DNA of 64,000 nt from Candidatus Rokuibacteriota bacterium (lineage in GTDB: Bacteria; Methylomirabilota; Methylomirabilia; Rokubacteriales; CSP1-6), in contig QHTE01000046.1 of NCBI GenBank assembly GCA_003220685.1, positions 51,184-115,183 on the forward strand, written 5' to 3'. The position numbers and the translations under genes are program-made. The notes below the pieces were generated by a model, which did no database searches, had not been told where the DNA came from, and worked only from the letters and a program-made list of their open reading frames with translations. Positions 8,012 through 62,221 of this stretch are shown here, piece by piece. Every line of letters starts with the position of its first letter. The stretch's first letter is position 1.

Positions 8012-10027
8012 CTAGCCGGTGAGGCCGGGGACCAGGTCGGCGCCGACTTCGACCGCTATCGAGGAGCCGGCGAAGTCGCGCGGGCGGTCGATCGGCTGGG
8101 CGGCGCCGCCCAGGTGCTTGGCGAGGAACGCTTCGGTCACCGCGCGGAACGCGATCTGGTTCTGCGGCTTCGAGAAGCCGTGGCCCTCATCCGGGAAGAC
8201 GATGTAGGTCACCGGCACGTTGCGCCGGCGCAGCGCCGTCACCATCTGCTCCGATTCGGCGCGGGTCACACGCACGTCCTTGAGCCCCTGCACGATCAGG
8301 ATCGGCCGGAAGGCACGGTCGATGTGGGTCAGGGGCGAGCGCTCTCGCAGAAACGCCCGGCCTTCCTCGGTGTCCGGATCGCCGATGCGGTTCTTCCAGA
8401 CGCTGAATCCTGGCGCCCAGTAGGGCGGGATCGCCGCCATGAAGGTCAGGAGATTGGCGATGCCGTAGATGTCGACGATGCACGCGAACACCTCCGGCGT
8501 CTTCGTGGCCGCGGTGAGCGCCGCGTAGCCGCCATAGCTGCCGCCGTAGAAGCCGATCCGCTTGGGGTCGGCGATCCCGCGCGCGACCGCCCAGTCGACG
8601 CCGGCGATCAGGTCGTCGTGCATCTTGCCGCCCCACTCGCGATCGGCGGCGGTCACGAAGGCCTTGCCGAAGCCGGTCGAGCCTCGATAGTTGATGCTGA
8701 GCACCGCGTAGCCGCGATTGGCGAGCCACTGGTGGGTGGAATTGAATCCCCACTCGTCCCGGAGATAGGGTCCGCCGTGGATCACCAGAACCATCGGGAG
8801 GTTCTTCGCGTCCGGCGCCGGGCGCGTCAGGTAGCCCTGGATCCTGAGGCCATCCCGGGCCGGGAACGTCACGGGCTCGAGCGGCCGCAAGGGTAGGCCG
8901 TCGAGGCGACGCCGCGCCTTGAAGAGCGGCCGGATCCGCCGCGTGGCCCGATCGTAGAGGACCCATTCCGGGCTCGCGGCATCGTGCTGGACGTGGACCA
9001 TGACCCGGGTCGCGTCGGCGGTGAGGCCGATCAGCTCGACGTCGCCGGACGTCGACGCCTCGATCGCCTTCAGGTCCGCCGCGAAGCTGCGATCGACCAC
9101 CTGCCACCGTCGCCGATCGACCATGGCGCCGGCGGCGAGCGGGTGGCGCGTGACGCGATGGAGCAGGACCCTCGTGATGTCGGCGTCCGGGTTCTCGGCG
9201 AGCACGCGCGCCCGGCGAGTCGCCACGTCCACGGCTACGAGCGCGGCCTTGTCGCGATCCCGCGCGTCGAAGAGGTACAGGGTCTTACCGTCGGCGCTGA
9301 AGTCCAGGACCCGCGTGGCGTCGACGTCGCCGCGCGGGATCGACAGGAAGGGCACCCAGGCCCCGCTCGGCCGGCGCTCGAGCACCTCCACACTGCCGTC
9401 CTTGCGGACGCGGGAGCCGAGTCGCAGCTGGAAGGCGTCGTCCGTGGCGAGCCGCACGAACTGGGAATTCTCGAAGAGGAGTGTCGAATTCCCCGTCACG
9501 ACGTCGATGCGAAAGAGGTCGAAGAATTGCTTGTCGCGCTCGTTGTGGCTGATGAGCATCTCGCTCGGGAAGCGCCGGCTCACCTCCTGCAGCCAGGAGC
9601 GCACGCCACGCAGGGGCGTGAGCGGCACGACCGTGCCGTCGTGGATGTCGACGCTCGAGGCGCGCCAGTTCTCGTCGCCGTCGCGCTCCTCCCAGAAGAC
9701 GACGTGCCGATTCGTGTACGCCCACTGGAAGAAGGAGCCGATCGGGCGATCGGTTACGCGGGTCAGGGGCCGAGCCCCTTTCAGATCGCCGACGGGCGCC
9801 ACCCAGAGGTTGCGCACGCCGTCGACCGGGGCGACGTACGCCACCCACGCGCCGTCGAACGAGAGCTGGGCCCAGGCGACGTCCGGATCGCCGAAGAAGG
9901 TTTCGCGTGGGACGAGCGGGCGAGAGGGCGGCGACTGCGCGTTGGAGAGCCGCGGCAGGATGAGCCCCGCAGTCAGCGATGCGGTACCCACGAGAAAACG
10001 GCGACGGGACGACGGGATCGCGTGCAT
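8012..10027 (-). CDS. S9 family serine peptidase (prolyl oligopeptidase/dipeptidyl aminopeptidase type), TAT-exported
   Basis: The ORF track starts at 10333, but the first about 100 codons are low-complexity. The ATG at 10027 has a GGAGG RBS 5 nt upstream and gives MHAIPSSRRRFLVGTASL (twin-arginine signal). The protein has a beta-propeller region plus an alpha/beta hydrolase domain with GGSYGG (GxSxG) and a DEGHGF histidine motif. Confidence 0.8.
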   Translation of the reverse strand: MHAIPSSRRRFLVGTASLTAGLILPRLSNAQSPPSRPLVPRETFFGDPDVAWAQLSFDGAWVAYVAPVDGVRNLWVAPVGDLKGARPLTRVTDRPIGSFFQWAYTNRHVVFWEERDGDENWRASSVDIHDGTVVPLTPLRGVRSWLQEVSRRFPSEMLISHNERDKQFFDLFRIDVVTGNSTLLFENSQFVRLATDDAFQLRLGSRVRKDGSVEVLERRPSGAWVPFLSIPRGDVDATRVLDFSADGKTLYLFDARDRDKAALVAVDVATRRARVLAENPDADITRVLLHRVTRHPLAAGAMVDRRRWQVVDRSFAADLKAIEASTSGDVELIGLTADATRVMVHVQHDAASPEWVLYDRATRRIRPLFKARRRLDGLPLRPLEPVTFPARDGLRIQGYLTRPAPDAKNLPMVLVIHGGPYLRDEWGFNSTHQWLANRGYAVLSINYRGSTGFGKAFVTAADREWGGKMHDDLIAGVDWAVARGIADPKRIGFYGGSYGGYAALTAATKTPEVFACIVDIYGIANLLTFMAAIPPYWAPGFSVWKNRIGDPDTEEGRAFLRERSPLTHIDRAFRPILIVQGLKDVRVTRAESEQMVTALRRRNVPVTYIVFPDEGHGFSKPQNQIAFRAVTEAFLAKHLGGAAQPIDRPRDFAGSSIAVEVGADLVPGLTG

Positions 10028-10154
10028 CGAGGCCTCCTCCGCCAGGGTCCGCAGGCTAGCACATTCTCCCGACTCGATGTTCCCCGGAACCGCGCGCCCG
10101 GTCCGAGTGTTACGAGTACAATCCCAGGGAGTAACTCTGAGCCAAGGAGGAGCT

Positions 10155-10715
10155 ATGTCCATCGCACGCGCCGTGAGCCGGACTCTCGTCCTGAGCGCGC
10201 TGGCCGTTCTGGTCCTGGCTAGCGCTGCCGCCGCCCTGGAAGTTGGGCAGAAGGCCCCCGACTTCGCCCTCAACGGGACCGACGGCAAGCCCGTCAAGCT
10301 CTCAGACTTGACGGCCAAGGGGCCCGTCGTCATTTATACCTTCATCGCCGCGTTCACCCCGACCTGAACCCGTGAACTCGCCGGCTTCGAGGCGGCCCTG
10401 CCGCAGTTCGAAGCCGCCGGCGCCCAGGTCGTGGGCGTCAGCACCGATCACCACCTCGCCCTCGCCGCGTGGCAGAAAGACCAGCATTCGAAGCAGCTCC
10501 TCCTCTCGGATTTCCGCCGTCAAATGCTCCCGGCGTACGGGGCGATGGAGACGAACGAGGCGAGCCCCGTCTATCGTTACGCGAAGCGGGCGTACTTCAT
10601 CATCGACAAGACGGGCACCGTCAAATACATGAAGATCATGGACAGCCCGCTGAACCTCCTCGAGCCGGCCGAAGTGCTCGCGGCGGTGAAGGCAGCAAAC
10701 CTGTCCATGAAATGA
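10155..10715 (+). CDS. Selenocysteine-containing peroxiredoxin (BCP/PrxQ-like, AhpC/TSA family), secreted; UGA at 10365-10367 read as Sec
   Basis: ATG 10155 has an AAGGAGG RBS and a Sec-type signal peptide. The 5' and 3' portions are in the same frame, separated only by a TGA at the peroxidatic Cys position: VVIYTFIAAFTPT-U-TRELAGFE aligns to the BCP motif VVLYFYPKDDTPGCTTE. The downstream half (VVGVSTD...LLSDF...YFIIDKTGTV) is the canonical Prx C-terminal half. A strong hairpin starts 11 nt after the UGA. Confidence 0.75.
10379..10422 (+). promoter_or_regulatory. Candidate bacterial SECIS-like hairpin downstream of the in-frame UGA
   Basis: CGCCGGCTTCGA / TCGAAGCC(GCC)GGCG stem with an inner GCGGC-CCT-GCCGC mini-helix. 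It starts 11 nt 3' of the UGA, the same spacing as the E. coli fdhF SECIS. Confidence 0.5.
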
Positions 10716-11140
10716 GACAACGTTCGATGGGGTTGATTCGACTCGGCGGCCTGATCGGCCTGATTGCCACGATGTGCGCGGCGTGCGCAGAGCTCGACGC
10801 CACGCCGCCGCTCAGCACGACGGCCACGACCCTGACGGTCGGGTGGGAGCACCACTTCACGGTGGAATGGGCCGCCGCCGAACAGGGCCAGAGCTCGCGG
10901 AAGGTCTCCGGGTACGTCTACAACCGCAACGGCGAGTATGCGATACATCTGCGCGTTCTTGCCCAGGCCATCAACGCCAACGGCGCCGTGGTCGGTCAGC
11001 GTGTCGGCTACGTGCCCGGAGGTGTGGGCGGGTTCGGACGCGCGTACTTCGAGGTCCCGAACTTGCCAGCGACCGCCAGCTATCGGGTCAGCGTCTGGGA
11101 CTATACGTGGTTCCAGTCCGACGGTGACGGCAAGCAGTGA
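10712..11140 (+). CDS. Small exported protein of unknown function, translationally coupled (ATGA overlap) to the selenoprotein Prx
   Basis: 142 aa. The start ATG overlaps the Prx stop TGA. It has an N-terminal hydrophobic signal (LIGLIATMCAAC) and no recognisable family. Confidence 0.55.
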   Translation: MRQRSMGLIRLGGLIGLIATMCAACAELDATPPLSTTATTLTVGWEHHFTVEWAAAEQGQSSRKVSGYVYNRNGEYAIHLRVLAQAINANGAVVGQRVGYVPGGVGGFGRAYFEVPNLPATASYRVSVWDYTWFQSDGDGKQ

Positions 11141-13334: not shown

Positions 13335-13345
13335 GCGGCACGATC

Positions 13346-14977
13346 ATGTACGCGGCATATTTCGGGCTGACGGAGCGGCCGTTCTCGCTGGCTCCCGATC
13401 CGCGCTACCTCTACCTGAGTGACGCGCACCGGGAGGCCCTCGCGCATCTGCTCTACGGGATCGGCGAGGGCGGCAGCTTCGTGCAGCTGACGGGCGAGGT
13501 GGGGACCGGAAAGACCACGGTCTGCCGCGCCCTGCTGGAGCAGCTCCCGCCGGACGTGGACGTCGCGATGATCTTCAATCCGCGGCTCACCTCGATCGAG
13601 CTGTTGGCGGCGGTCTGCGACGAGCTCCGCGTGCCGTATCCCCCAGGAACGACGAGCTTGAAAGTGCTGGTCGACGCGCTGTCCCAGGCACTGCTCGACG
13701 CGCACGCGCGCGGGCGGCGGACCGTCCTCATCATCGACGAGGCCCAGAACCTGAGCGCGCGCGTCCTCGAGGAGGTTCGCCTCCTCACGAATCTGGAGAC
13801 GACGACCCAGAAGCTCCTGCAGGTGGTGCTCATCGGCCAGCCGGAGCTGGCCGATCTGCTCTCGCGACGCAACCTGCGTCAGCTCTCGCAGCGCGTGACG
13901 GCCCGCTATCACCTGCGACCGTTCAGCGAGGCGGAGTCGCAGCGTTACGTGCAGCATCGCATGGAGGTGGCGGGCCAGCGCCAGGCGATCTTCACTCGAC
14001 AGGGCGTGCGCGCCGCCCACCGCCTGTCGCGCGGCATCCCGCGTCTGCTCAACACGATCTGCGATCGCGCGCTGCTCGGCGCGTACGCGACCGGACAGAC
14101 GCGCGTCAAGGAAGCCGTCGTCCGGCGCGCGGCCCGTGAAGTGCTCGGCGCGCGCAGGAGTTGGCGCTGGGTGGCCGCGACGGCGGCCGCCGTGCTCCTC
14201 GTCCTCGTGGGCAGCACGATCGCCCTGGTCGCGACCGGCGGACTGCGCTCACTCGGGGCCTGGGCGTTCTCGCGGGTGGAGAAGGCGGGCCCGTCGCCCG
14301 AGACCCCGGCGCCCGCCCCGACGGTGGACGAGCGGCGAGCGCCGGAGCCGACCCTGGCGGCGACCCTGGACGATCCGTCGCTGACCGCCGACCGCGCGAG
14401 CGCCTTCGTGAACCTGTACGCGCTCTGGGGCCTCGACGCCCGGGGCGTGGACGCCGATCGCGGATGCGAGCTCGGGCGCGCGGCCCGCCTCAGGTGTCTC
14501 ACGCGCTCGGGAACCTGGACGGTGCTGCGTCGCCTCAACCTTCCGGCGATCCTCGAGCTCGCGACTCCCGACGGCCGGAAGCATCACGTGGTGCTGGCGC
14601 GCCTCGACGGCGACCGGGCGACGATCGAGATCGGCCCGCGTCGAGTCACGCTGCCGGCGACCGAGGTGGAGCGCTTCTGGGACGGCCCATTCGTGATGAT
14701 CTGGAAGTCGCCGGTGAGCGGGCCGGTGCCGCTCCAGCCGGGCATGCTGGGCCGCGACGTCGTCTGGCTTCGGCAGCGGCTCGGCGCGCTCGACGGACAA
14801 CCGATCACGGCGATGGCCAACCAGACCTACGACGAAGAGCTCAGGCGGCGCGTCGCCGTCTTCCAGCAGGGCGAGGCGCTGGTACCCGACGGCATCGCGG
14901 GTGAAGAGACACTCGTCCGTCTGGCCGCGACCGCCCCCGGAGCCAGCGGGCCCTCGCTCACCCGGGAGCGACCATAG
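13346..14977 (+). CDS. gspA: General secretion pathway protein A (ExeA/GspA family AAA ATPase with C-terminal peptidoglycan-binding domain)
   Basis: 543 aa. N-terminus MYAAYFGLTERPFSLAPDPRYLYLSDAHREALAHLLYG with Walker A GEVGTGKTT is the classic ExeA signature. It has one TM segment and a C-terminal PG_binding-like repeat (LRQRLGAL...VFQQGEALVPDGIAG). Confidence 0.8.
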   Translation: MYAAYFGLTERPFSLAPDPRYLYLSDAHREALAHLLYGIGEGGSFVQLTGEVGTGKTTVCRALLEQLPPDVDVAMIFNPRLTSIELLAAVCDELRVPYPPGTTSLKVLVDALSQALLDAHARGRRTVLIIDEAQNLSARVLEEVRLLTNLETTTQKLLQVVLIGQPELADLLSRRNLRQLSQRVTARYHLRPFSEAESQRYVQHRMEVAGQRQAIFTRQGVRAAHRLSRGIPRLLNTICDRALLGAYATGQTRVKEAVVRRAAREVLGARRSWRWVAATAAAVLLVLVGSTIALVATGGLRSLGAWAFSRVEKAGPSPETPAPAPTVDERRAPEPTLAATLDDPSLTADRASAFVNLYALWGLDARGVDADRGCELGRAARLRCLTRSGTWTVLRRLNLPAILELATPDGRKHHVVLARLDGDRATIEIGPRRVTLPATEVERFWDGPFVMIWKSPVSGPVPLQPGMLGRDVVWLRQRLGALDGQPITAMANQTYDEELRRRVAVFQQGEALVPDGIAGEETLVRLAATAPGASGPSLTRERP

Positions 14978-14979
14978 CC

Positions 14980-15654
14980 GTGTCGTACATCCTCGACGCG
15001 CTCACGAAGGCCGCCCAGCAGCGAGATCGACAGATTCCCGTGGTGCAGCGGCTCCTCTCGCCCGCGCCGAGAGCGCGCTCGCCGTGGAGCTACGCGTCCG
15101 GGCGTCTGCTCGCCGCGCTCGCGCTGAACGCGGTCCTCCTGGGCGCCGTGCTGATCTGGTGGCTGCGTCCTGTGGCGACCGAGGCGCCGCCCGCGCCGAT
15201 CGCCGCTCAGACGCCGCCGGCGAGCCCGCGTCCGCTCGTGAAGCTCGAGCCTCTGCCGAAGACCGATGTGGCGGTCGAGAAGCCGGCGCCGTCGCCGGCC
15301 GACACGCGGGCCGACGCCGCGCCGGTCGTGAAGCCGGGCACGCCGCCACCCGCCGCGCCGCCGGCCCCGCGCATGGGGACACCGACGATCCAGCCGGCTC
15401 CCGCGGCTCCGGCCGCGCCGGCGCCTCCGCCCGCGTCCGTCGCCCGACCTGCGCCACCGCCGGAGTCGGCGGGGCTCAGAGTCGAGGCGCTGATCTATGC
15501 CGACACACCGGCCGAGCGAATGGTGTTCATCAACGGCCGCCGGTATCGCGAAGGCGACTCGATCGATGGCCGGCTCCGGATCGAAGAGATCCGAGAAGAC
15601 GGCGTCGAGCTGAGCGATCAGGGTCGGCGCTTCACGTTGCGCGTCTCGCGCTGA
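14980..15654 (+). CDS. gspB: General secretion pathway protein B (ExeB/GspB family)
   Basis: GTG start 3 nt after the gspA stop. N-terminus SYILDALTKAAQQRD, one TM segment, a Pro/Ala-rich linker and a conserved C-terminal domain (FINGRRYREGDSIDG). Confidence 0.7.
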   Translation: MSYILDALTKAAQQRDRQIPVVQRLLSPAPRARSPWSYASGRLLAALALNAVLLGAVLIWWLRPVATEAPPAPIAAQTPPASPRPLVKLEPLPKTDVAVEKPAPSPADTRADAAPVVKPGTPPPAAPPAPRMGTPTIQPAPAAPAAPAPPPASVARPAPPPESAGLRVEALIYADTPAERMVFINGRRYREGDSIDGRLRIEEIREDGVELSDQGRRFTLRVSR

Positions 15655-24153: not shown

Positions 24154-24277
24154 GGCCCCGATTCTAACGGTATCGGGCCTTTCCGGCCCTGGCGTCGACC
24201 GTGGTATACCGGAAGAGCCACCATATGAAGCGCCCGGTGACCAACCGCGTCAGCGTCCCACGTCCCGGAGGTCTCTC

Positions 24278-24751
24278 GTGACCGGTCTGCGCTTCGGGCA
24301 GGCGGCACCGGGCTTCTCGCTGCCGTCGAGCGCGGGCGGCGAGACGTCCCTGGCCGACTTCAAGGGCAAGGACGTCGTGCTCGTCTTCTATTGCTACGAC
24401 TGGGGGGGCATCTGAACGCCCGAGCTGAGCGACCTGGGCCGGGTCGCCGACGAGATCGCCAGACGGGGCGCCGCCGTGGTCGCCATCAGCGGTGACAGCC
24501 CGTTCTGCCACGCCGCGTTCATGAAGGCGCGCAACTTCCCGTTCGCGCTCCTGAGCGACGTGCACCGCGCGGCGATCCGCGCCTACGGCGTGCTCGACGT
24601 CGATCGCAACGTCGCCTACCGCTCGACCTTCATCGTGGACCGGGACGGCGTGCTCCGCTGGGGGCAGGCCGGCGATCGCGAGATGGTTCGCGACGGGAGC
24701 GAGATCCTCCGCGTGCTCGACGTGATCGAAGGGCTCCGGCGGAAGCGCTGA
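24278..24751 (+). CDS. Selenocysteine-containing peroxiredoxin-like protein (AhpC/TSA thioredoxin fold); UGA at 24413-24415 read as Sec
   Basis: GTG 24278 with GGAGG 6 nt upstream. VLVFYCYDWGGI-U-TPEL aligns residue-for-residue with the Prx active-site VLFFYPLDFTFVCPTEI, placing the in-frame TGA at the peroxidatic Cys. The downstream in-frame half (AVVAISGDSPFCHAAF...LLSDV...RSTFIVDRDGVL) is the Prx C-terminal half. The N-terminal 124 codons of the track ORF 23906..24415 are rejected. Confidence 0.7.
24429..24447 (+). promoter_or_regulatory. Candidate SECIS-like hairpin
   Basis: GCGACC-tgggccg-GGTCGC, starting 13 nt after the UGA. It is shorter than the other two hairpins. Confidence 0.35.
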
Positions 24752-34720: not shown

Positions 34721-35548
34721 ATGCCGACGGTCAGACTGAGAGACGCCGAGGAGTACCCGGAGCCCGTCCAGAAGCTCTTCGAGGCCGCGAAGGCGTGGTT
34801 CAAGTACGACTTCGCCCAGCCGCCGGCGATGAGCCGGGTGATGGCGTGGGATCCGGAGCTCGGTGGCTTCCACGGGCGCGCGATGAAACGCGCGATGGGG
34901 CCGGGCGAGTGGAGCCGGGCCGAGAAGGAGATGGTCGCGGCGGTCGTGAGCGGCGTCAACGCCTGCGCCTACTGAGTAGGCGCCCACACTGCAGCCGGGA
35001 AGCTGCAGGGAATGGCCCACGACGCGCCCTGGTACGAGGCCGCGCTGCTGGTGGGCGTCACGAACGCGCTCAACGTCGTCGCCGACTCGCCGCTGGAGTC
35101 GCTCGAGCCGGCGCGCCCGAGCGCCGAGGCGCAGGCGGTGTTCGCCGAGATCCGCGCCTTCTACGAGCGCGCCGACGTGCCGGTGGCCTTCCGCCGCGTG
35201 GCGGCGGACCCGGGCTACCTGGCGGACCTGTGGGGCGCCGCACGGCGCGTGTTCGCCGACAACACACTCACGCGCCGTCACAAGGAGGCGCTGGCGTTCG
35301 CGGTCTCGGTCACGACGCGCTCGCAGTTCGGGACGGCGTTCCATCTCGGCGAGATGCGGCGACTCGGCGTCGGCGAGCGGGGAGTGATGGAGGTGCTCGG
35401 CGTCACGCAGATGTTCTCGAGCTACACCAAGATCGCCGACACGCTCCAGCTCGAGCCCGACATGGACGCCATCGCGGGCGTGGATCCATCACCCGCGCCC
35501 GGCGGTGCCGCGCCCGCGCCCAGGACGCGGCCGCCCGAGGCGCCGTAG
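34721..35548 (+). CDS. Selenocysteine-containing AhpD-like/carboxymuconolactone decarboxylase (CMD) family protein, two-domain; UGA at 34973-34975 read as Sec
   Basis: ATG 34721 with AAGGAG RBS. VSGVNACAY-U-VGAH matches the CMD/AhpD active-site motif NxCxYCxxxH with the TGA at the second Cys (CxxU). The downstream 178 codons are in the same frame and form a second, Cys-less CMD-like half. A CTGCAG palindromic hairpin lies 13 nt after the UGA. Confidence 0.7.
34989..35008 (+). promoter_or_regulatory. Candidate SECIS-like hairpin
   Basis: CTGCAG-ccgggaag-CTGCAG, starting 13 nt after the UGA. Confidence 0.4.
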
Positions 35549-53977: not shown

Positions 53978-54688
53978 CTAGACAGCGCGGCCGGCGGCGG
54001 ACGTCCGGCGAATCAGCCCGCGGAGGCGGTCGGCATCGTGCGGATCGAGGCGGACGAACGTGAAGGCCTGCCCGTCGGCGTCGACTCGAAGGAGGATCGA
54101 GATGACCTCGATCGGCGCGCCGCCGTCCGGCGGCGTGAAGATCGCCTTGCCGATCGTGTCCGAGTCCAGCGCCGCATCGAAGCGCGCTTTCATGCCCGAC
54201 AGGCCCACCTCGACGAGGGTCCCGTGGTGCTCGCGTCCGTTGTACTCGCGCAGCCGCGCCGGAATGCTCAGACGGGCGCGCGTCGACCGCCGCTTGTCCG
54301 GACGTCGCTCCAGCTCGGCGCCGCGGGCCATGGCGTGCGGCTCGAGGAACGTCAGGACCTCGTTCAGCCGCTCGAGCTGGACGGGCTTGCCCATGAAGTC
54401 GGCCGCGCCCAGCCTGAGGCACTCGCGGGCCTGGCTCTCGTTGACGACCCCGGAGACGGCGACGATCGGGACGCCGAGCGCCCGCACCGGGCGGAGCTGG
54501 AGGAAGTCGAGCCCGCTCATCCCGGGGAGCTGGACGTCGAGCAGGATCGCGTCGAGCCGCTCGCTCTGGAGGCTGGCGAGCGCGGCTTCGGCCGTGTGGA
54601 CGACGAGCGCGTGGTGGCCGAGCTCGACGAGAAAGTCGCGCAACACCTCGCCGAGGTCGAGCTGGTCTTCGACAACCAGGACCCGCAT
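53978..54688 (-). CDS. Response regulator receiver fused to PilZ domain
   Basis: REC domain (VLVVEDQ...ILLDVQLPGMSG...K) then PilZ motifs (RRSTRARL...DxSxxG-like LSGMKA). Confidence 0.7.
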   Translation of the reverse strand: MRVLVVEDQLDLGEVLRDFLVELGHHALVVHTAEAALASLQSERLDAILLDVQLPGMSGLDFLQLRPVRALGVPIVAVSGVVNESQARECLRLGAADFMGKPVQLERLNEVLTFLEPHAMARGAELERRPDKRRSTRARLSIPARLREYNGREHHGTLVEVGLSGMKARFDAALDSDTIGKAIFTPPDGGAPIEVISILLRVDADGQAFTFVRLDPHDADRLRGLIRRTSAAGRAV

Positions 54689-54803
54689 CTGCGGCCGAGC
54701 GTAGCACGATAGGTGCGGCTTCCCCGAGGAACCGAGACCGGTCGGGCCTCTCGGCCCGAAGTGCTATACTGTGCGCCCGGGTGCATCTCGAAGGAGGCAT
54801 ATC

Positions 54804-55147
54804 TTGTCGGGCTACCTGCCCGTTCTCATCTTCGCCGCGTTGATCCTCGGCTTCGGGGTCGTCTCGCTCGCGGTGGCGCGGCTTTTGCGTCCGAGCCGCC
54901 CCAGCCCCGTCAAGCTCATGAACTACGAGTGCGGCGCCGAGCCCATCGGGACCGCCTGGGTGCAGTTCCCCGTCGGCTTCTACCTGGTCGCGCTCGTGTT
55001 CATCGTCTTCGACGCGCTCGCAGTGTTCCTCTTCCCGTGGGCGCTGGTGCTCCGCGTCGTCGGCGTCAGCGCGTTCTGGGTGATGGCCGCGTTCGTCGGC
55101 CTCCTCGGACTCGGCTGGCTCTACGCGTACCGGGAGGGCGTGCTCGA

Positions 55148-55157
<10 letters not shown>
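54804..55157 (+). CDS. nuoA: NADH-quinone oxidoreductase subunit A
   Basis: TTG start 6 nt after AAGGAGG. 117 aa with three TM segments and a NuoA conserved core. Confidence 0.8.
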
Positions 55158-55785
<628 letters not shown>

Positions 55786-55789
<4 letters not shown>

Positions 55790-56235
55790 CGGCCGCCGAC
55801 GCGCGCGCGCGTATCCAGGAGCGCTTCGGAGTGGACGCGGTCGCCGACGGTGGGCTCGGCGTCACCCTGCCGCGCGATCGCTGGCAGGAGTTCGCCCGCT
55901 TCGCCCACGACGAGCTCGGCTGCCGCTACTTCAACTGGCTGTCCGCCGTGGACTGGCAGGACCAGGGTCTCGAGGTGCTCTGCCGCCTCGAGAACCTCGA
56001 CGCGCCGCTCGTGGTCGCGATGCGCACCCGGCTCCCCGCCGGCCAGACACGCTGTCCGTCGCTGACCTCGCTCTATCGCGGCGCCAACTGGATGGAGCGC
56101 GAGTGCTACGACATGTTCGGGATCGTCTTCGAAGGCCATCCCGACCTCCGACGCATCCTCCTCTCGGACGACTGGGAAGGCTACCCGCTCCGAAAGGACT
56201 ACGCCGTCGACACTCCGCTGGCCCCGTACCGATGA
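55786..56235 (+). CDS. nuoC: NADH-quinone oxidoreductase subunit C (30 kDa)
   Basis: 149 aa with ATGA overlap with nuoB. NuoC motif [23 protein letters not shown]. Confidence 0.85.
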
Positions 56236-56248
56236 GGAGACACGGTCC

Positions 56249-56884
56249 ATGATCTACGAGCTGCGCACCTATACCCTCTCGCCCGGCAAGCAGGGCGAGT
56301 ACCTCAAGCTCAATTCCGAGGTCGGCCGTCCGATCCGCGGCGACAAGTACGGCAAGCTCGAGGGCTCGTGGACGACCGAGTTCGGCACCCTCAACCAGTA
56401 CGTCCACCTCTGGGCCTACGCCGACCTGGTCGAGCGCGAGCGGCTGCGGGACGAGCTCGCGAAGAACGAGGCGTGGGGCCGCGACTACGTCGCGAAGATC
56501 CGGCCGCTGCTCCTCGCCCAGGAGAACAAGATCCTGTCGGCGCAGCTGCCGCTGAAGCCGCCGGGCGACGGCGGGCACGTCTACGAGCTCCGGGCGTATC
56601 GCACCCAGGTCGGGAAGGCCGGCGAGTGGCTCGGCCACTTCAAGGCGATCATGCCCGTGCGCGAGAAGTACTCGAAGAACGTGGGCGTGTTCCAGACCGA
56701 GGTGGCCCAGCTCAACGAGGTCGTGCACCTCTGGGCCTATCGCGATCTGAACGATCGGGCGGCCGTCCGCGGCAAGGTTCTTCAAGACGCGGAGTGGCAG
56801 GCGTTCCTCGGCAAGGCGACGCCGCTGCTCGTCGAGATGCGCTCGGTGGCGATGATTCCCGCGCCGTCCTCGCCGATGAAGTAA
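56249..56884 (+). CDS. NIPSNAP family protein (tandem NIPSNAP domains) inserted in the complex I operon
   Basis: 211 aa with two repeats of the YELRTYTL...HLWAY pattern. Confidence 0.7.
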   Translation: MIYELRTYTLSPGKQGEYLKLNSEVGRPIRGDKYGKLEGSWTTEFGTLNQYVHLWAYADLVERERLRDELAKNEAWGRDYVAKIRPLLLAQENKILSAQLPLKPPGDGGHVYELRAYRTQVGKAGEWLGHFKAIMPVREKYSKNVGVFQTEVAQLNEVVHLWAYRDLNDRAAVRGKVLQDAEWQAFLGKATPLLVEMRSVAMIPAPSSPMK

Positions 56885-56891
56885 CTCGACC

Positions 56892-58055
56892 GTGGCCGCG
56901 ACGCAGACCCAGCAGGTCGTCGAGATCGGGTACGGGGGCAACGAGCGCCTCATGATGAACATGGGGCCGCAGCACCCATCATCCCACGGCGTGTTCCGCA
57001 TGATCCTCACGCTCGAGGGCGAGACCGTCGTCGGCGTCGACGCCGTGATCGGCTATCTCCACCGCTGCCACGAGAAGCTCGGCGAGAGCCTGACGTACGT
57101 GCAGTACCCGTCGATCGCATCGAAGACCGACTACGTCGCGGCCATGACCGCCGAGCTCGCGTACGTCTCCGCCGTCGAGAAGATCGCGAAGGTCGAGGTT
57201 CCCCGCCGCGCGCAGTACCTGCGCGTGATCGTCGCCGAGCTGCAGCGGATCGCCTCCCACTGCCTCTGGCTCGGCACCTGGTGCCTGGACATGGGCGGAG
57301 CGCTCGGGGGCGGCGCGACCGTCTTCCTCTACTGCATCCGCGAGCGCGAGATGGTCCTGGATCGCTTCGAGGAGCTGACCGGCGCGCGCCTGCTCTACGG
57401 CTTCCACCAGACGGGCGGCACCCGGTACGACGTGCCGCCGGGCTGGGACAAGAAGGTGCGCGAGACGGTCGACTTCATCGAGCGCCGGCTCGACGAGTAC
57501 GAGTCGATGCTGGAGGGCAACACGTTCTTCCGCGTGCGCACGCAGGGCGTCGGCGTGATCTCGCGCGAGGTCGCCGAGACGGTGGGCGTGTCGGGCCCGC
57601 TGATCCGCGGCTCGGGCGTGGGGTACGACGTCCGGCGGGCCGAGCCGTATTCGTCGTACGGCGATTTCGACTTCGTCGTGCCCGTGGAGACCGCGGGCGA
57701 TTGCTACGCGCGCTATCGCGTGCGCATGGTCGAGTTCCGTCAGTCGATCCGGATCATCCGGCAGGCGCTCGACGGGCTCCCCGAGGGCCCGATCTCCTCG
57801 CGTCCCGGCGTGAAGTCCGTCGCCCAGGTCCGCGTGCCCAAGGGCGAGGGCTACACGCGCATCGAGGGCGCCCGCGGCGAGATCGGCTGCTACATCGTGA
57901 GCGACGGCGGGCCGAAGCCGTACCGCCTGAAGTGGCGGGGCGCGTCCTTCTCGAACCTGGCCGTCCTGCCCTACATCGTGCCCGGCCACAAGGTCGCCGA
58001 CGTGGTCGCGATCATGGGCTCCGTCGATCCGGTATTCGGGGAAGTCGACCGGTGA
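56892..58055 (+). CDS. nuoD: NADH-quinone oxidoreductase subunit D (49 kDa)
   Basis: GTG start. Motifs MMNMGPQHPSSHGVFRM and the C-terminal region match NuoD. Confidence 0.9.
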   Translation: MAATQTQQVVEIGYGGNERLMMNMGPQHPSSHGVFRMILTLEGETVVGVDAVIGYLHRCHEKLGESLTYVQYPSIASKTDYVAAMTAELAYVSAVEKIAKVEVPRRAQYLRVIVAELQRIASHCLWLGTWCLDMGGALGGGATVFLYCIREREMVLDRFEELTGARLLYGFHQTGGTRYDVPPGWDKKVRETVDFIERRLDEYESMLEGNTFFRVRTQGVGVISREVAETVGVSGPLIRGSGVGYDVRRAEPYSSYGDFDFVVPVETAGDCYARYRVRMVEFRQSIRIIRQALDGLPEGPISSRPGVKSVAQVRVPKGEGYTRIEGARGEIGCYIVSDGGPKPYRLKWRGASFSNLAVLPYIVPGHKVADVVAIMGSVDPVFGEVDR

Positions 58056-59041
58056 CCTTGCCGCCCATGGCCTGGCACGCGATCGAGGCGTTCATCGTCC
58101 TGAACGTCCTGCTCGGGCTGGTCGCCTACGTCACGCTGCTCGAGCGCAAGTTCGCCGCGCGCATGCAGTCGCGGATCGGCCCGTACTACGTCGGCCGGCC
58201 CCACGGCTGGCTCCAGCCGATCGCCGACGCGCTCAAGCTGATGATGAAGGAAGACATCGTCCCGGCCACCAGCGATCGCGCGGTCTACAACCTGGCGCCG
58301 ATCGTCTTCCTCGTCCCGTGCTTGCTGATCTTCGCGACGCTCCCGTTCGCGCCCACGCTCGGCGTCGCCGACCTGAACATCGGCGTACTGTTTTTCCTGG
58401 CCGTCTCGTCGCTGGAGATCGTCGGCCTCTTCATGGGCGGCTGGGGGTCGAACAACAAGTACGCGCTCCTGTCGGCGATGCGCGCGGTCAACCAGATCAT
58501 CTCCTACGACCTGCCGTTCATCTTCGCCGCGCTCGTTCCGGTCGTCCTCGCCGGCTCGATGCAGATGTCGTCGATCGTCGCCGCGCAGCAGGGACTCTGG
58601 TTCGTCGCCTACCCTCTCATCGGCCAGCTCGCCTTCCTCGCCTTCGTGGTGGCCACGCTCGCCGCCGAGAACCGGGTGCCCTTCGACATCCTCGAGGCCG
58701 AGTCGGAGCTGGTCGCCGGCTTCCGGGTCGAGTACAGCGGCATGAAGTTCGCCCTGATCCAGCTCGGCGAGTACGCGCACATGCTGGGCACGAGCTTCCT
58801 CGGCGCCCTGCTCTTCCTGGGCGGCTGGCTCGGCCCCGGGCCGGCGGCGCTCGGACCGCTGTGGCTCCTGCTCAAGGCGATGGTGATCTTCCTGCTGGTC
58901 ACCTGGGTGCGCTGGTCATTCGTGCGGATCCGGGTCGACCACATCCTGGCGATCTCGTGGAAGCTCCTGATGCCGGCGACCCTCGTCTTGCTGCTGGCGG
59001 CCGGGTTCGTCGTCGCGACGCGAGGCGCCGGTGGCGGGTAA
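58052..59041 (+). CDS. nuoH: NADH-quinone oxidoreductase subunit H
   Basis: NuoH core ERKFAARMQSRIGPYYVGRPHGWLQPIADALKL. The start is either the GTG at 58052 (GTGA-coupled to nuoD) or the ATG at 58067. Confidence 0.85.
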   Translation: MTLPPMAWHAIEAFIVLNVLLGLVAYVTLLERKFAARMQSRIGPYYVGRPHGWLQPIADALKLMMKEDIVPATSDRAVYNLAPIVFLVPCLLIFATLPFAPTLGVADLNIGVLFFLAVSSLEIVGLFMGGWGSNNKYALLSAMRAVNQIISYDLPFIFAALVPVVLAGSMQMSSIVAAQQGLWFVAYPLIGQLAFLAFVVATLAAENRVPFDILEAESELVAGFRVEYSGMKFALIQLGEYAHMLGTSFLGALLFLGGWLGPGPAALGPLWLLLKAMVIFLLVTWVRWSFVRIRVDHILAISWKLLMPATLVLLLAAGFVVATRGAGGG

Positions 59042-59600
59042 CGGCGGCGCGCCCGCGTTCTGGCGCGAGACGGGCCAGCTGATCGGCGCCATCGGGCGCG
59101 CGATGGGCGTCACCTTGCGGAACCTCTTCCGCAAGCCGGTGACCGTCCACTATCCCGACGTCCAGCGGCAATACCCGGACCGCTTCCGGGGCATCCTCGC
59201 CCTCGCCTACGACAAGGAGACCGGCGAGGAGGCGTGCATCGGCTGCCGTCTCTGCGAGTACGTCTGCCCGCCGCAAGTGATCAAGGTCGAGATGCTGAAG
59301 GGCCAGAAGCGGAACTACGCGAAGACGTTCACCCTCGAGCTCTACGCGTGCGAGTTCTGCGAGCTGTGCGTGCAGGTGTGCCCGACCGACGCGATCATCA
59401 TGATGAAATCCTTCGATCTCGCGACCGCGGACCGGCGCGAGCTCCTGCTCGACAAGGACCGGCTGCACGCCCTCGGCCTCACGTTCGAGCCATCGTGGGC
59501 CACGGGCAACCGGCTGCGCGACATGCAGGCGCCGCCGAGGCCGGCGCGAGCCGAGGCCAGGGGAGAAGCCAAGGGAGAGGCGAAGGAGCCGGCCGAGTGA
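59031..59600 (+). CDS. nuoI: NADH-quinone oxidoreductase subunit I (2x[4Fe-4S])
   Basis: Two CxxCxxCxxxCP motifs (CIGCRLCEYVCP, CEFCELCVQVCP). The N-terminus aligns to Thermus Nqo9 (GVTLRNLFRKPVTVHYPD). The start is GTG 59031 or ATG 59103, so it is uncertain. Confidence 0.8.
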   Translation: MAGNGGAPAFWRETGQLIGAIGRAMGVTLRNLFRKPVTVHYPDVQRQYPDRFRGILALAYDKETGEEACIGCRLCEYVCPPQVIKVEMLKGQKRNYAKTFTLELYACEFCELCVQVCPTDAIIMMKSFDLATADRRELLLDKDRLHALGLTFEPSWATGNRLRDMQAPPRPARAEARGEAKGEAKEPAE

Positions 59601-60091
59601 CCCTCGAAGCGGTTGGATTCTGGGTGGTAGCCGTGGTGCTACTCGCCTCGAGCCTTGCCGTCGTGCTCACCCCGAACCTGTTCCACGCCGTCCTCTACCT
59701 CGCCGCGGCCCTGGTCGCCACGGGCGCGATCTTCCTCTTGCTGGAGCAGCCCTTCCTCTTCGCCGTGCAGCTCCTGCTCTACGCCGGGGGCGTCGTCACG
59801 ATCGTGGTGTTCGCGATCATGCTGACCGAGCGGCTGATCGGGGAGCGCGTCCGGCAGACGAGCCGGCACCTCGTCAACGGCGCGATCGTCGCGGCCGCGG
59901 TCTTCGCCGGCATCGCGGGCTTCCTGCTGCGGTCGCCGCTGGCGACGCCGCGCCCGGGACCGGTCGACGACGCCACGGTCGCGATCGGGCGCGCCCTGGT
60001 GGGCCCCTTCGCCGTGACGCTCGAGCTCCTGGGCGTGCTCCTGGTGACGGCTCTCCTCGGCGCCCTCTACTTCGCGCGGAGCGACGAGTGA
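59597..60091 (+). CDS. nuoJ: NADH-quinone oxidoreductase subunit J
   Basis: GTGA-coupled to nuoI. 164 aa with 5 TM segments. Confidence 0.8.
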   Translation: MTLEAVGFWVVAVVLLASSLAVVLTPNLFHAVLYLAAALVATGAIFLLLEQPFLFAVQLLLYAGGVVTIVVFAIMLTERLIGERVRQTSRHLVNGAIVAAAVFAGIAGFLLRSPLATPRPGPVDDATVAIGRALVGPFAVTLELLGVLLVTALLGALYFARSDE

Positions 60092-60390
60092 TCGGGCTCT
60101 CGTCCTATCTGGTCCTGGCCGCGCTCATGTTCTCGATCGGGCTCTTCGGGGTCCTGACCCGCCGCAACGCGGTCGGTATCCTGCTCGGGATCGAGCTGAT
60201 GCTGAATGCCGTCAACATCAACCTGGTTGCCTTCGCGCGCTTTCACGGCGACCTGTTGGGGCTGGTCTTCACCTTGTTCACGCTCTCCATCACCGTCGCC
60301 GAGGTCGCCGTGGGACTCGCAATCGTCATCGTGATCTTCCGCGTGCGGCGGACGGTCGAGGCGGACCGCCTCGACCTGCTGCGGTGGTAG
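60088..60390 (+). CDS. nuoK: NADH-quinone oxidoreductase subunit K
   Basis: 100 aa with 3 TM segments and conserved Glu residues in TM2/TM3 (GIELML, AEVAVGLA). Confidence 0.9.
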   Translation: MIGLSSYLVLAALMFSIGLFGVLTRRNAVGILLGIELMLNAVNINLVAFARFHGDLLGLVFTLFTLSITVAEVAVGLAIVIVIFRVRRTVEADRLDLLRW

Positions 60391-60394
60391 CACC

Positions 60395-62208
<1,814 letters not shown>

Positions 62209-62221
<13 letters not shown>

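What the first reader, a model, noticed from the sequence alone, without database searches (positions are those of the whole stretch)
10155..10715. Secreted BCP/PrxQ-type peroxiredoxin with UGA at the peroxidatic Cys position (selenoprotein candidate)
The track shows two same-frame ORFs, 9000..10367 and 10431..10715. They are halves of one peroxiredoxin separated only by the TGA at 10365-10367. The TGA lies exactly where the catalytic Cys sits: FTPT-U-TREL against the BCP consensus TPGCTTE. The downstream half is a normal Prx C-terminal half. A stable, bulged hairpin starts 11 nt downstream, the canonical position for a bacterial SECIS element. Gene callers would annotate this as a truncated or pseudo gene. 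Sec-containing Prx families are known from comparative genomics, but each instance needs its own confirmation. This one is exported (signal peptide), which is unusual.
Basis: partly seen in the sequence, partly recalled or inferred. Interest (0 to 1): 0.85.

Follow-up and report, generated by a model that had tools for sequence, protein, structure and literature searches.

The report
Exported selenocysteine peroxiredoxin gene in Rokubacteria
The "broken" peroxiredoxin gene is almost certainly one intact gene whose internal UGA encodes selenocysteine at the catalytic site; this enzyme type is already known, but gene callers routinely cut this soil-bacterial version in two.

Summary
One 186-codon AhpC/TSA gene (10155-10715, +) has an in-frame TGA at 10365-10367. 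That codon aligns with the peroxidatic Cys of solved BCP/PrxQ structures.

Evidence that the TGA is decoded:
- All 67 related loci, from about 58 Rokubacteria/Methylomirabilota MAGs (44-95% aa identity), carry TGA there, never TAA or TAG.
- More distant relatives carry TGC or TGT.
- Both halves are under purifying selection (dN/dS 0.25 and 0.34).
- A hairpin at 10382-10416 is conserved with compensatory changes and is weaker in the closest Cys forms.
- TGA is otherwise an ordinary stop codon in this genome.
- The same window holds two more UGA-interrupted redox genes: a Prx-like gene (TGA 24413) and an AhpD-like CxxU gene (TGA 34973).
- In 43 related loci the Prx is followed by a secreted TlpA-like gene with a UxxC motif.

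The protein has a signal peptide and no cysteine at all, so I read it as an exported "1-Sec" peroxiredoxin.

Not shown: selA, selB, selD and tRNA-Sec are absent from all DNA I could reach. Only the literature says the phylum uses Sec.

TxxU selenoperoxiredoxins have been known since 2001-2005, so this is a new member of a known kind and of moderate interest.

The parts
10144..10152 (+). Shine-Dalgarno-like AAGGAGGAG in front of the true start codon
   Evidence: Read directly from the sequence. No comparable site precedes the GTG at 10431 that gene callers use for the C-terminal fragment.
10155..10715 (+). Single coding sequence of a 186-residue Prx (AhpC/TSA, BCP/PrxQ-like), with Sec at codon 71
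   Evidence: Translation. PF00578 over residues 30-159. PDB BCP hits over residues 28-175. GC3 is continuous across the TGA. dN/dS is 0.25 upstream and 0.34 downstream of the TGA across 68 sequences.
10155..10235 (+). Predicted Sec-type (not twin-arginine) signal peptide, MSIARAVSRTLVLSALAVLVLASAAAA|LEVGQ
   Evidence: It has a basic n-region, a hydrophobic core and an AxA site directly before the start of the Prx domain. The same layout occurs in homologues P0001-P0008, P0012, P0024, P0043, P0046 and P0058. The region evolves fast (dN/dS 0.76) but stays hydrophobic. This is rule-based inference; no signal-peptide predictor was available.
10365..10367 (+). In-frame UGA read as selenocysteine (U71), at the peroxidatic Cys position, in the motif T-P-T-U
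   Evidence: It aligns with the catalytic Cys of 2cx3, 2ywn and 3hjp. TGA occurs in 67/67 related loci and TGC/TGT in 12/12 distant ones. The 'W' in JGI gene calls is TGA in the DNA.
10382..10416 (+). SECIS-like hairpin. Lower stem 10382-10391/10407-10416, AG bulge 10405-10406, upper stem 10392-10396/10400-10404, apical loop CCU 10397-10399 (or CCCUG if the closing C-G pair is open)
   Evidence: Folds. 90.4% of cells are paired over 57 distinct sequences, 7 pairs change on both sides, 0/500 shuffles reach this, and slid controls give 30-54%. RNAalifold recovers the core. Energy is -27.7 kcal/mol, top 0.9% of natural windows. Sec forms average -26.1, against -9.9, -15.9 and -22.0 in the closest Cys forms. 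dS drops in the hairpin codons (0.50 against 0.74).
10712..11140 (+). Downstream 142-aa ORF whose ATG overlaps the Prx stop (ATGA), implying translational coupling. It has an N-terminal hydrophobic or lipoprotein-like leader, and its function is unknown
   Evidence: Sequence. No Pfam or NCBIfam match. It sits in the same position only in the window's own clade, 10 loci.

Best explanation
Positions 10155-10715 encode one exported, cysteine-free peroxiredoxin of the BCP/PrxQ type. Its catalytic residue is selenocysteine, encoded by UGA 10365-10367.

Shown:
- The UGA sits at the peroxidatic Cys position.
- It is conserved as TGA in every close orthologue.
- Both flanks are under purifying selection in one reading frame.
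- A covarying hairpin lies 14 nt downstream.

Inferred:
- During translation, SelB carrying Sec-tRNA(Sec) binds this hairpin (a bacterial SECIS) and inserts Sec instead of terminating.
- The signal peptide sends the unfolded chain through SecYEG into the periplasm and is cut after AAA27.
- The selenolate, activated by the conserved Thr68 and Arg145, attacks H2O2 or an organic hydroperoxide and becomes a selenenic acid.
- There is no resolving Cys, so an external periplasmic reductant must recycle it.
- In most relatives the obvious candidate is the secreted TlpA-like UxxC selenoprotein encoded directly downstream. This window's clade lacks that gene next door and has an unknown 142-aa protein instead.
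For: - Domain and active-site alignment.
- 67/67 loci from about 58 MAGs have TGA, and 12/12 distant loci have TGC/TGT. Cys forms at 51-57% identity exist in metagenomes (P0012, P0024, P0043, P0046, P0058).
- dN/dS is 0.25 and 0.34 on the two sides of the TGA.
- Hairpin covariation and controls. Hairpin stability is specific to Sec forms.
- TGA is a normal stop in this genome: 23 of 47 predicted genes end in TGA.
- There is a strong ribosome-binding site only at 10155.
- Two further UGA-interrupted redox genes lie in the same window, at the catalytic Cys of a Prx-like protein and within the CxxC of an AhpD-like protein.
- 44/44 TlpA-like downstream genes in relatives have TGA at the first Cys of CxxC, plus a conserved CGGGAGG-AGUUG-CCUUCCG hairpin.
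- Thr68 is kept in 66/67, Arg145 in 66/66 and Glu74 in 67/67 Sec forms. None of the 67 has a Cys in the mature part.
- The phylum is reported to use Sec: 63 predicted selenoproteins in one Methylomirabilota MAG (PMC13188914) and [NiFeSe] hydrogenases (PMC13582414).
Against: - No selA, selB, selD or tRNA-Sec was found in the window, its flanks or about 0.9 Mb of related loci. The decoding machinery is therefore unverified for this organism.
- The MFE apical loop (CCU) has no guanosine, which published bacterial SECIS models expect. A G is in the loop only if the closing C-G pair opens.
- The single-sequence fold is weak against shuffles (z -1.6).
- Part of the lower stem comes from the self-complementary codons of GFE...FEA, and it partly persists in one Cys form (L087, -22 kcal/mol).
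- The canonical Pro of PxxxTxxC is Ile or Val here. The protein scores below the cut-offs of every NCBIfam peroxiredoxin equivalog. Peroxidase activity is thus inferred, not shown.
- No Rfam family matches the hairpin.
- One metagenome copy (L083) has TTA instead of TGA, together with a premature stop.
Confidence: 0.88

Rival explanations
1. It is a pseudogene. A nonsense mutation hit the catalytic Cys codon (TGC or TGT to TGA) and the gene is decaying.
For: A single-base change from TGC or TGT gives TGA. Public gene callers treat the locus as fragments. One metagenome copy (L083) looks degenerate, with TTA plus a premature stop.
Against: The same TGA is kept in 67/67 loci spanning 44-95% identity, with no other stops or frameshifts. 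dN/dS is 0.25-0.34 on both sides. A covarying hairpin lies downstream. Catalytic Thr, Arg and Glu are conserved.
Confidence: 0.02
2. The UGA is a true stop. The locus makes a 70-residue secreted peptide and, separately, a 94-115-residue C-terminal protein from an internal start.
For: ORF lists and public annotations show two pieces. In-frame start codons exist downstream, such as GTG 10431.
Against: Neither piece is a foldable Prx domain; the Pfam and PDB alignments span the stop. There is no ribosome-binding site before 10431. The C-terminal piece would lack both the signal peptide and the catalytic residue. The stop is always TGA and never TAA or TAG, which is not expected for an ordinary terminator across 67 lineages.
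Confidence: 0.03
3. The UGA is read through as a standard amino acid (Trp, Cys or Gly), either by a reassigned genetic code or by near-cognate suppression, rather than as selenocysteine.
For: JGI's gene caller translated close homologues with W at this site (P0001-P0007). The Sec machinery was not found in the DNA available.
Against: TGA terminates about half of the predicted genes in the window, including this one, so the code is standard. The 'W' is a caller artefact on short contigs. Trp or Gly at a peroxidatic Cys position would kill catalysis. The position-specific hairpin, the three other thiol-oxidoreductase families in this lineage with UGA exactly at a redox Cys, and the Sec/Cys pairing together form the classic selenoprotein signature. 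The phylum is reported as Sec-using (PMC13188914, PMC13582414).
Confidence: 0.05

Closest known systems
Selenocysteine-containing peroxiredoxins with a TxxU motif: PrxU of Eubacterium acidaminophilum (Sohling et al. 2001, cited in PMC13188914) and the 'Prx' selenoprotein family (COG1225) of the Sargasso Sea and GOS surveys (PMC1088965)
   Same: AhpC/TSA fold. Sec replaces the peroxidatic Cys in a T-x-x-U context. A hairpin follows the UGA. Cys-containing homologues are widespread.
   Different: It scores far below the NCBIfam PrxU cut-off (46 against 270 bits). It carries a signal peptide. It has no Cys at all, so there is no resolving Cys. The Pro of the PxxxTxxU motif is Ile or Val. It is confined, in the genomes scanned, to Rokubacteria/Methylomirabilota.
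Archaeal BCP/PrxQ peroxiredoxins with solved structures (Aeropyrum pernix BCP 2cx3; Sulfolobus Bcp1 2ywn/4g2e and Bcp4 3hjp)
   Same: These are the best sequence matches among solved structures (E 1e-24 to 1e-20 over about 145 residues). The catalytic Cys/Sec, the Thr/Ser at -3 and the Arg in the KRAxF(I/V)ID strand all align.
   Different: They are cytoplasmic and use Cys. A. pernix BCP has a resolving Cys five residues after the catalytic one (CTKELC), where this protein has Ala (UTRELA).
1-Cys peroxiredoxins such as Mycobacterium tuberculosis AhpE (PDB 1xvw, a weaker hit)
   Same: A single redox-active chalcogen residue and no resolving Cys, so the oxidised form must be reduced by an outside partner.
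   Different: AhpE is cytoplasmic and uses Cys, and the sequence similarity is distant (E about 1e-7).
TlpA/ResA/DsbE-type periplasmic thiol:disulfide oxidoreductases, including the known UxxC selenoprotein forms ('thiol:disulfide interchange protein' in PMC13188914; NCBIfam NF041054 WAxxUGC)
   Same: The gene directly downstream of the Sec-Prx in 43 related loci belongs here (ResA NF002854 E 5e-30). It has a signal peptide and the motif FWATW-U-PDC. It is a plausible reductant.
   Different: It is absent from this window. It scores below the cut-off of the WAxxUGC model (66 against 300 bits). I did not find the Prx-TlpA two-selenoprotein pairing described in the papers I could read.

Membership tests
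Bacterial selenoprotein gene (UGA recoded to Sec) | The in-frame UGA aligns with Cys in homologues (a Sec/Cys pair) | tested here: met
   There is TGA in 67/67 close loci and TGC/TGT in 12/12 distant loci. Cys forms occur at 51-57% identity. The position equals the catalytic Cys of 2cx3.
Bacterial selenoprotein gene (UGA recoded to Sec) | Protein-coding conservation continues in frame on both sides of the UGA | tested here: met
   dN/dS is 0.25 for codons 28-70 and 0.34 for codons 72-180 over 68 sequences. GC3 is continuous.
Bacterial selenoprotein gene (UGA recoded to Sec) | A stem-loop (bSECIS) lies immediately downstream of the UGA | tested here: met
   The hairpin at 10382-10416 lies 14 nt after the UGA. 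90.4% of cells are paired, 7 pairs show compensatory changes, and 0/500 shuffles reach this. It is more stable in Sec forms than in Cys forms.
Bacterial selenoprotein gene (UGA recoded to Sec) | [quoted passage not shown] | tested here: inconclusive
   The MFE loop is CCU. The nearly invariant G at 10400 (alignment column 36) is in the loop only if the closing C-G pair is open. No bSECISearch tool was available, and Rfam has no matching family.
Bacterial selenoprotein gene (UGA recoded to Sec) | selA, selB, selD and tRNA-Sec (selC) are present in the same genome | not testable with these tools
   None was found in the 64-kb window, its flanks or any fetched locus, and the rest of the genome could not be read. 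Indirect support comes from two more UGA-interrupted redox genes in the window and from literature on the phylum (PMC13188914, PMC13582414).
Bacterial selenoprotein gene (UGA recoded to Sec) | Selenium is actually incorporated at the site | not testable with these tools
   This needs 75Se labelling or mass spectrometry.
Peroxiredoxin (AhpC/TSA, PF00578), BCP/PrxQ-like | The domain match is above the curated threshold and is homologous to solved Prx structures over the whole domain | tested here: met
   PF00578 scores 111.8 bits against a cut-off of 26. 2cx3, 2ywn and 3hjp match with E 1e-24 to 1e-20 over residues 28-175.
Peroxiredoxin (AhpC/TSA, PF00578), BCP/PrxQ-like | Catalytic Thr/Ser at -3 and Cys (here Sec) of the PxxxTxxC motif, plus the conserved Arg | tested here: met
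   T68 occurs in 66/67, U71 in 67/67 and R145 in 66/66 Sec forms. These align with S46, C49 and the Arg of the 2cx3 KRAVFIV strand.
Peroxiredoxin (AhpC/TSA, PF00578), BCP/PrxQ-like | Pro at -7 of the PxxxTxxC motif | tested here: not met
   Position 64 is Ile in 59 and Val in 7 of the 66 Sec forms aligned at this position, never Pro.
Peroxiredoxin (AhpC/TSA, PF00578), BCP/PrxQ-like | A resolving Cys (typical of 2-Cys BCP: CxxxxC) | tested here: not met
   The +5 position is Ala, and there is no Cys anywhere in the mature part of any of the 67 Sec forms. It can therefore only work like a 1-Cys Prx.
NCBIfam equivalogs: Bcp (NF006960), PrxU (NF040737), Prx-SUH (NF045827) | Score at or above the curated cut-off | tested here: not met
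   The scores are 61.1 against 140, 46.1 against 270, and 36.2 against 298 bits. It is not a member of any of these named subfamilies.

The most novel reading that the evidence does not exclude
Rokubacteria run an entirely extracytoplasmic, selenium-based peroxide defence. A cysteine-free 1-Sec peroxiredoxin is exported through the Sec translocon. In most lineages it is recycled by a co-transcribed, secreted TlpA-like UxxC selenoprotein, giving a two-selenoprotein relay. The window's clade has swapped that partner for an uncharacterised 142-residue protein that may be a new kind of reductant or selenium-handling factor.
Probability: 0.35. Interest if true: 0.55.

Novelty: new member of a known kind. 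Interest (0 to 1): 0.4.

Why it matters
- **Annotation.** This family, and at least three other redox families in the same lineage, is split or truncated in essentially all public gene calls. Hundreds of protein clusters are affected. Proteome and metabolic reconstructions of Rokubacteria therefore miss their active antioxidant enzymes.
- **Ecology.** Rokubacteria are described as common soil bacteria (own knowledge, not tested here). Three selenoprotein genes within 25 kb, together with a report of 63 in one Methylomirabilota MAG (PMC13188914), suggest a strong selenium dependence in a mostly aerobic soil lineage. That would link soil selenium availability to oxidative-stress tolerance.
- **Biochemistry.** A Cys-free exported Prx with a single Sec would be a clean natural system for studying selenenic-acid chemistry and its reduction outside the cytoplasm.

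Tried and rejected
- **Sec machinery by similarity.** I ran tblastn with E. coli SelA, SelB and SelD against the window and all loci and got no hits.
- **tRNA-Sec.** ARAGORN and Rfam on the window and on 71 loci found none.
- **Extending the window.** Both ends were extended through identical contigs. This yielded only fatty-acid, ABC-transporter, nuo and ribosomal genes.
- **Rfam on the hairpin region at permissive E-values.** Only chance hits appeared.
- **Literature.** I searched for Rokubacteria or Methylomirabilota selenoproteins. Only a review sentence and a hydrogenase paper turned up, and the primary source (Deng et al. 2026) is not held.
- **Whole-window scan for other in-frame TGAs with coding signal on both sides.** After excluding two plain gene boundaries (6593 and 3445), it found the Prx, the second Prx-like gene and the AhpD-like gene.
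- **Rejected readings.** These were a reassigned code (TGA is the commonest stop), a pseudogene, and a split gene; see the rival explanations.
- **Not done.** I did not predict a structure, because the sequence match to solved BCP structures already covers the whole domain.

Full report
**What is in the sequence**

The + strand carries ATG 10155 behind a Shine-Dalgarno-like AAGGAGGAG (10144-10152). An open frame runs from there to TGA 10713-10715 and is interrupted only by TGA 10365-10367. It overlies the antisense S9 peptidase gene (8012-10027, -).

Read through, the product is 186 residues. PF00578 AhpC-TSA matches residues 30-159 (E 2.6e-32) and PF08534 Redoxin also matches, so the domain spans the stop. 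Against solved structures the best matches are BCP/PrxQ proteins of Aeropyrum and Sulfolobus (E 1e-24 to 1e-20, residues 28-175). The TGA aligns with their catalytic Cys: AAFSPVCTKEL against AAFTPT*TREL. The GC3 of the frame (0.83-0.85) is continuous across the TGA.

**Is the UGA decoded?**

One scan of 185,579 species-representative genomes returned 80 loci. In tblastn alignments, 67 loci have a stop at the aligned position while the alignment continues through it. These loci have 44-95% identity, come from about 58 assemblies, and are nearly all Rokubacteria/Methylomirabilota MAGs. The codon is TGA in 67/67 and never TAA or TAG. The 12 more distant loci that align across this position (32-42% identity) have TGC or TGT.

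In the protein database, the closest "full-length" hits carry W at this site. The DNA shows TGA, so this is a gene-caller artefact. More than 100 clusters are 102-113-aa fragments that start just after the TGA. Full-length Cys forms appear at 51-57% identity.

Pairwise Nei-Gojobori estimates over 68 sequences give dN/dS of 0.25 for codons 28-70 and 0.34 for codons 72-180. Both halves are therefore expressed as protein in this frame.

TGA is an ordinary stop here. It ends 23 of 47 predicted genes, against 20 for TAG and 4 for TAA. A reassigned code is excluded.

One metagenome copy has TTA at the site plus a premature stop, and looks like a dead copy or an assembly error.

**The hairpin**

In this sequence the best fold downstream of the UGA has three parts: a 10-bp lower stem (10382-10391/10407-10416), an AG bulge, and a 5-bp upper stem closing a CCU loop.

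- Taken alone it is only modestly better than dinucleotide shuffles (z -1.6).
- It lies in the top 0.9% of natural 48-nt windows from this GC-rich window.
- Across 57 distinct orthologous sequences, 90.4% of cells are paired and 7 of 15 pairs show changes on both sides. One example is C-G to G-C at columns 29/39, where an Ala-to-Gly change pairs with a synonymous Pro change. No shuffle out of 500 reaches the observed values, and sliding the partners gives 30-54% pairing.
- RNAalifold finds the same core.
- Sec forms average -26.1 kcal/mol. The three closest Cys forms give -9.9, -15.9 and -22.0.
- Synonymous divergence is lower in the hairpin codons (0.50 against 0.74).

There are caveats. Part of the lower stem arises from the self-complementary codons of GFE...FEA. 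The MFE apical loop also lacks the guanosine expected of bacterial SECIS elements (PMC1088965) unless the closing pair opens. No Rfam family matches.

**Does the organism decode Sec?**

This could not be shown directly. No selA, selB, selD or tRNA-Sec lies in the window, in 10-kb extensions on either side, or in the related loci.

The indirect evidence is strong.

- A scan for in-frame TGAs with coding signal on both sides found two more in the same window.
- The first is a cytoplasmic Prx-like gene (24278-24751) with TGA 24413 at the same catalytic position, in the motif YDWGGI-U-TPEL. Its database homologues are again W-containing or truncated.
- The second is an AhpD/CMD gene (34721-35548) with TGA 34973 inside the canonical VSxxNxCxYCxxxH motif, giving CxxU. 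The AhpD core model spans the site. A perfect 7-bp hairpin starts 13 nt downstream. All 120 best homologues are C-terminal fragments.
- In 43 related loci the Sec-Prx is followed, often with overlapping stop and start codons, by a secreted TlpA/ResA-like gene with FWATW-U-PDC. TGA occurs in 44/44 copies of this gene, one locus holding a second copy. A conserved CGGGAGG-AGUUG-CCUUCCG hairpin lies 9 nt after the UGA.
- A 2026 review reports a Methylomirabilota MAG with 63 predicted selenoprotein genes (PMC13188914). [NiFeSe] hydrogenase variants are also reported in the phylum (PMC13582414).

**What it is and how it probably works**

The N-terminus is MSIARAVSRTLVLSALAVLVLASAAAA|LEVGQ. It has the basic, hydrophobic and AxA layout of a Sec-type signal peptide and no twin arginine. 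The same layout recurs in all full-length homologues, directly before the start of the Prx domain. This is inference, since no predictor was available.

GspA- and T2SS-B-like genes nearby fit a diderm cell with a periplasm.

Among the 67 Sec forms, Thr68, Glu74 and Arg145 are essentially invariant. The canonical Pro at -7 is always Ile or Val. None has a single Cys in the mature part.

The protein can therefore only act like a 1-Cys Prx. Sec would be oxidised to a selenenic acid by a peroxide, and an external partner would then reduce it. The adjacent TlpA-like selenoprotein of relatives is the natural candidate. This window's clade instead has a translationally coupled 142-aa protein of unknown function (10712-11140), found in the same place in 10 loci. 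Peroxidase activity, export and the identity of the reductant are all inferred.

**Comparison with what is known**

Sec-containing peroxiredoxins with a TxxU motif are established. PrxU of Eubacterium acidaminophilum is one. [quoted passage not shown]

This protein works like those but is not a member of the named NCBIfam subfamilies. Bcp, PrxU and Prx-SUH all score below their cut-offs. It differs in four respects: it is exported, it is Cys-free, it lacks the motif Pro, and it is largely restricted to one phylum. I did not find a Prx-TlpA two-selenoprotein operon described in the papers I could read.

**Verdict**

I put about 0.88 on a Sec-encoding UGA in a single Prx gene.

It is a new member of a known kind, not a new mechanism. 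Exported selenoproteins are not exceptional. Interest is moderate (0.4). Its value lies in correcting annotation, in selenium ecology of soil Rokubacteria, and in a possible periplasmic selenoprotein relay.

The key missing test is the presence of selA, selB, selC and selD in the complete genome, followed by mass-spectrometric detection of the Sec peptide.

Noticed in passing
window 24278-24751 (+), TGA at 24413-24415: Second selenoprotein candidate. It is a cytoplasmic AhpC/TSA Prx-like gene (GGAGG 24267-24271, GTG start) with an in-frame TGA at the catalytic Cys position (FYCYDWGGI-U-TPEL), and it is 28% identical to the finding's Prx. PF00578 gives E 8e-36 when the TGA is read as Cys. Database homologues carry W (a code-4 call) or are 91-108-aa fragments. 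A possible hairpin GCGACC-UGGGCCG-GGUCGC lies 13 nt after the UGA.
   Followed up: partly
window 34721-35548 (+), TGA at 34973-34975: Third selenoprotein candidate. It is an AhpD/CMD-family protein with TGA inside the core motif VSGVNACAY-U-VGAH (CxxU). TIGR00778 and PF02627 span the site. A perfect 7-bp hairpin CUGCAGC-CGGGAA-GCUGCAG starts 13 nt downstream. All 120 best homologues are C-terminal fragments, and P0241 (NCBI, Candidatus Rokuibacteriota) is 100% identical to the fragment.
   Followed up: partly
related loci, e.g. L043 6480-7010; 43 of the 67 Sec-Prx loci: Directly downstream of the Sec-Prx, often with overlapping stop and start codons, lies a secreted TlpA/ResA-like gene with the motif FWATW-U-PDC. 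TGA occurs in 44/44 copies. A conserved, covarying hairpin CGGGAGG-AGUUG-CCUUCCG starts 9 nt after the UGA. This makes a two-selenoprotein operon, which this window lacks.
   Followed up: partly
window 10712-11140 (+): A 142-aa ORF overlaps the Prx stop (ATGA). It has a hydrophobic, lipoprotein-like leader and no Pfam or NCBIfam match. It occupies the place of the TlpA-like gene only in the window's own clade (10 loci: L001-L007, L010, L012, L013).
   Followed up: partly
L083 917-919 (ENA forest-soil contig, protein P0065): This is the only relative found with a sense codon other than Cys at the site: TTA (Leu) in place of TGA. It also has a premature stop after residue 143, so it is probably a decayed copy or an assembly error. 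P0008 shows G at the site and P0121 (second family) shows L, but neither has a contig on record to check.
   Followed up: partly
proteins P0001-P0007 and P0122-P0127 (JGI gene calls); L084 777-1328: JGI gene calls on short contigs translate the Sec TGA as Trp, apparently because a code-4 model was chosen. This produces spurious full-length 'FTPTWTKEL' proteins in public databases. The DNA of L084 shows TGA.
   Followed up: yes
loci L012, L020/L056, L040, L055: Bins labelled Binatia, Dormiibacterota, Verrucomicrobiia and the archaeon Nitrosotalea carry Sec-Prx genes 62-93% identical to the Rokubacteria gene. Mis-binned Rokubacteria contigs in the soil MAG catalogue are more likely than real transfer. 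Nine assemblies hold two paralogous Sec-Prx loci.
   Followed up: no
window 13337-15654 (+) and 53978-62221: The surrounding genes are ordinary: ABC transporter components, a Tat-signal S9 peptidase divergent from the Prx, GspA-like AAA plus T2SS-B-like genes, a large GAF/PAS histidine kinase, a MoxR/DUF58/transglutaminase cluster, and a nuo (complex I) operon running off the right end. None is selenium-related.
   Followed up: partly
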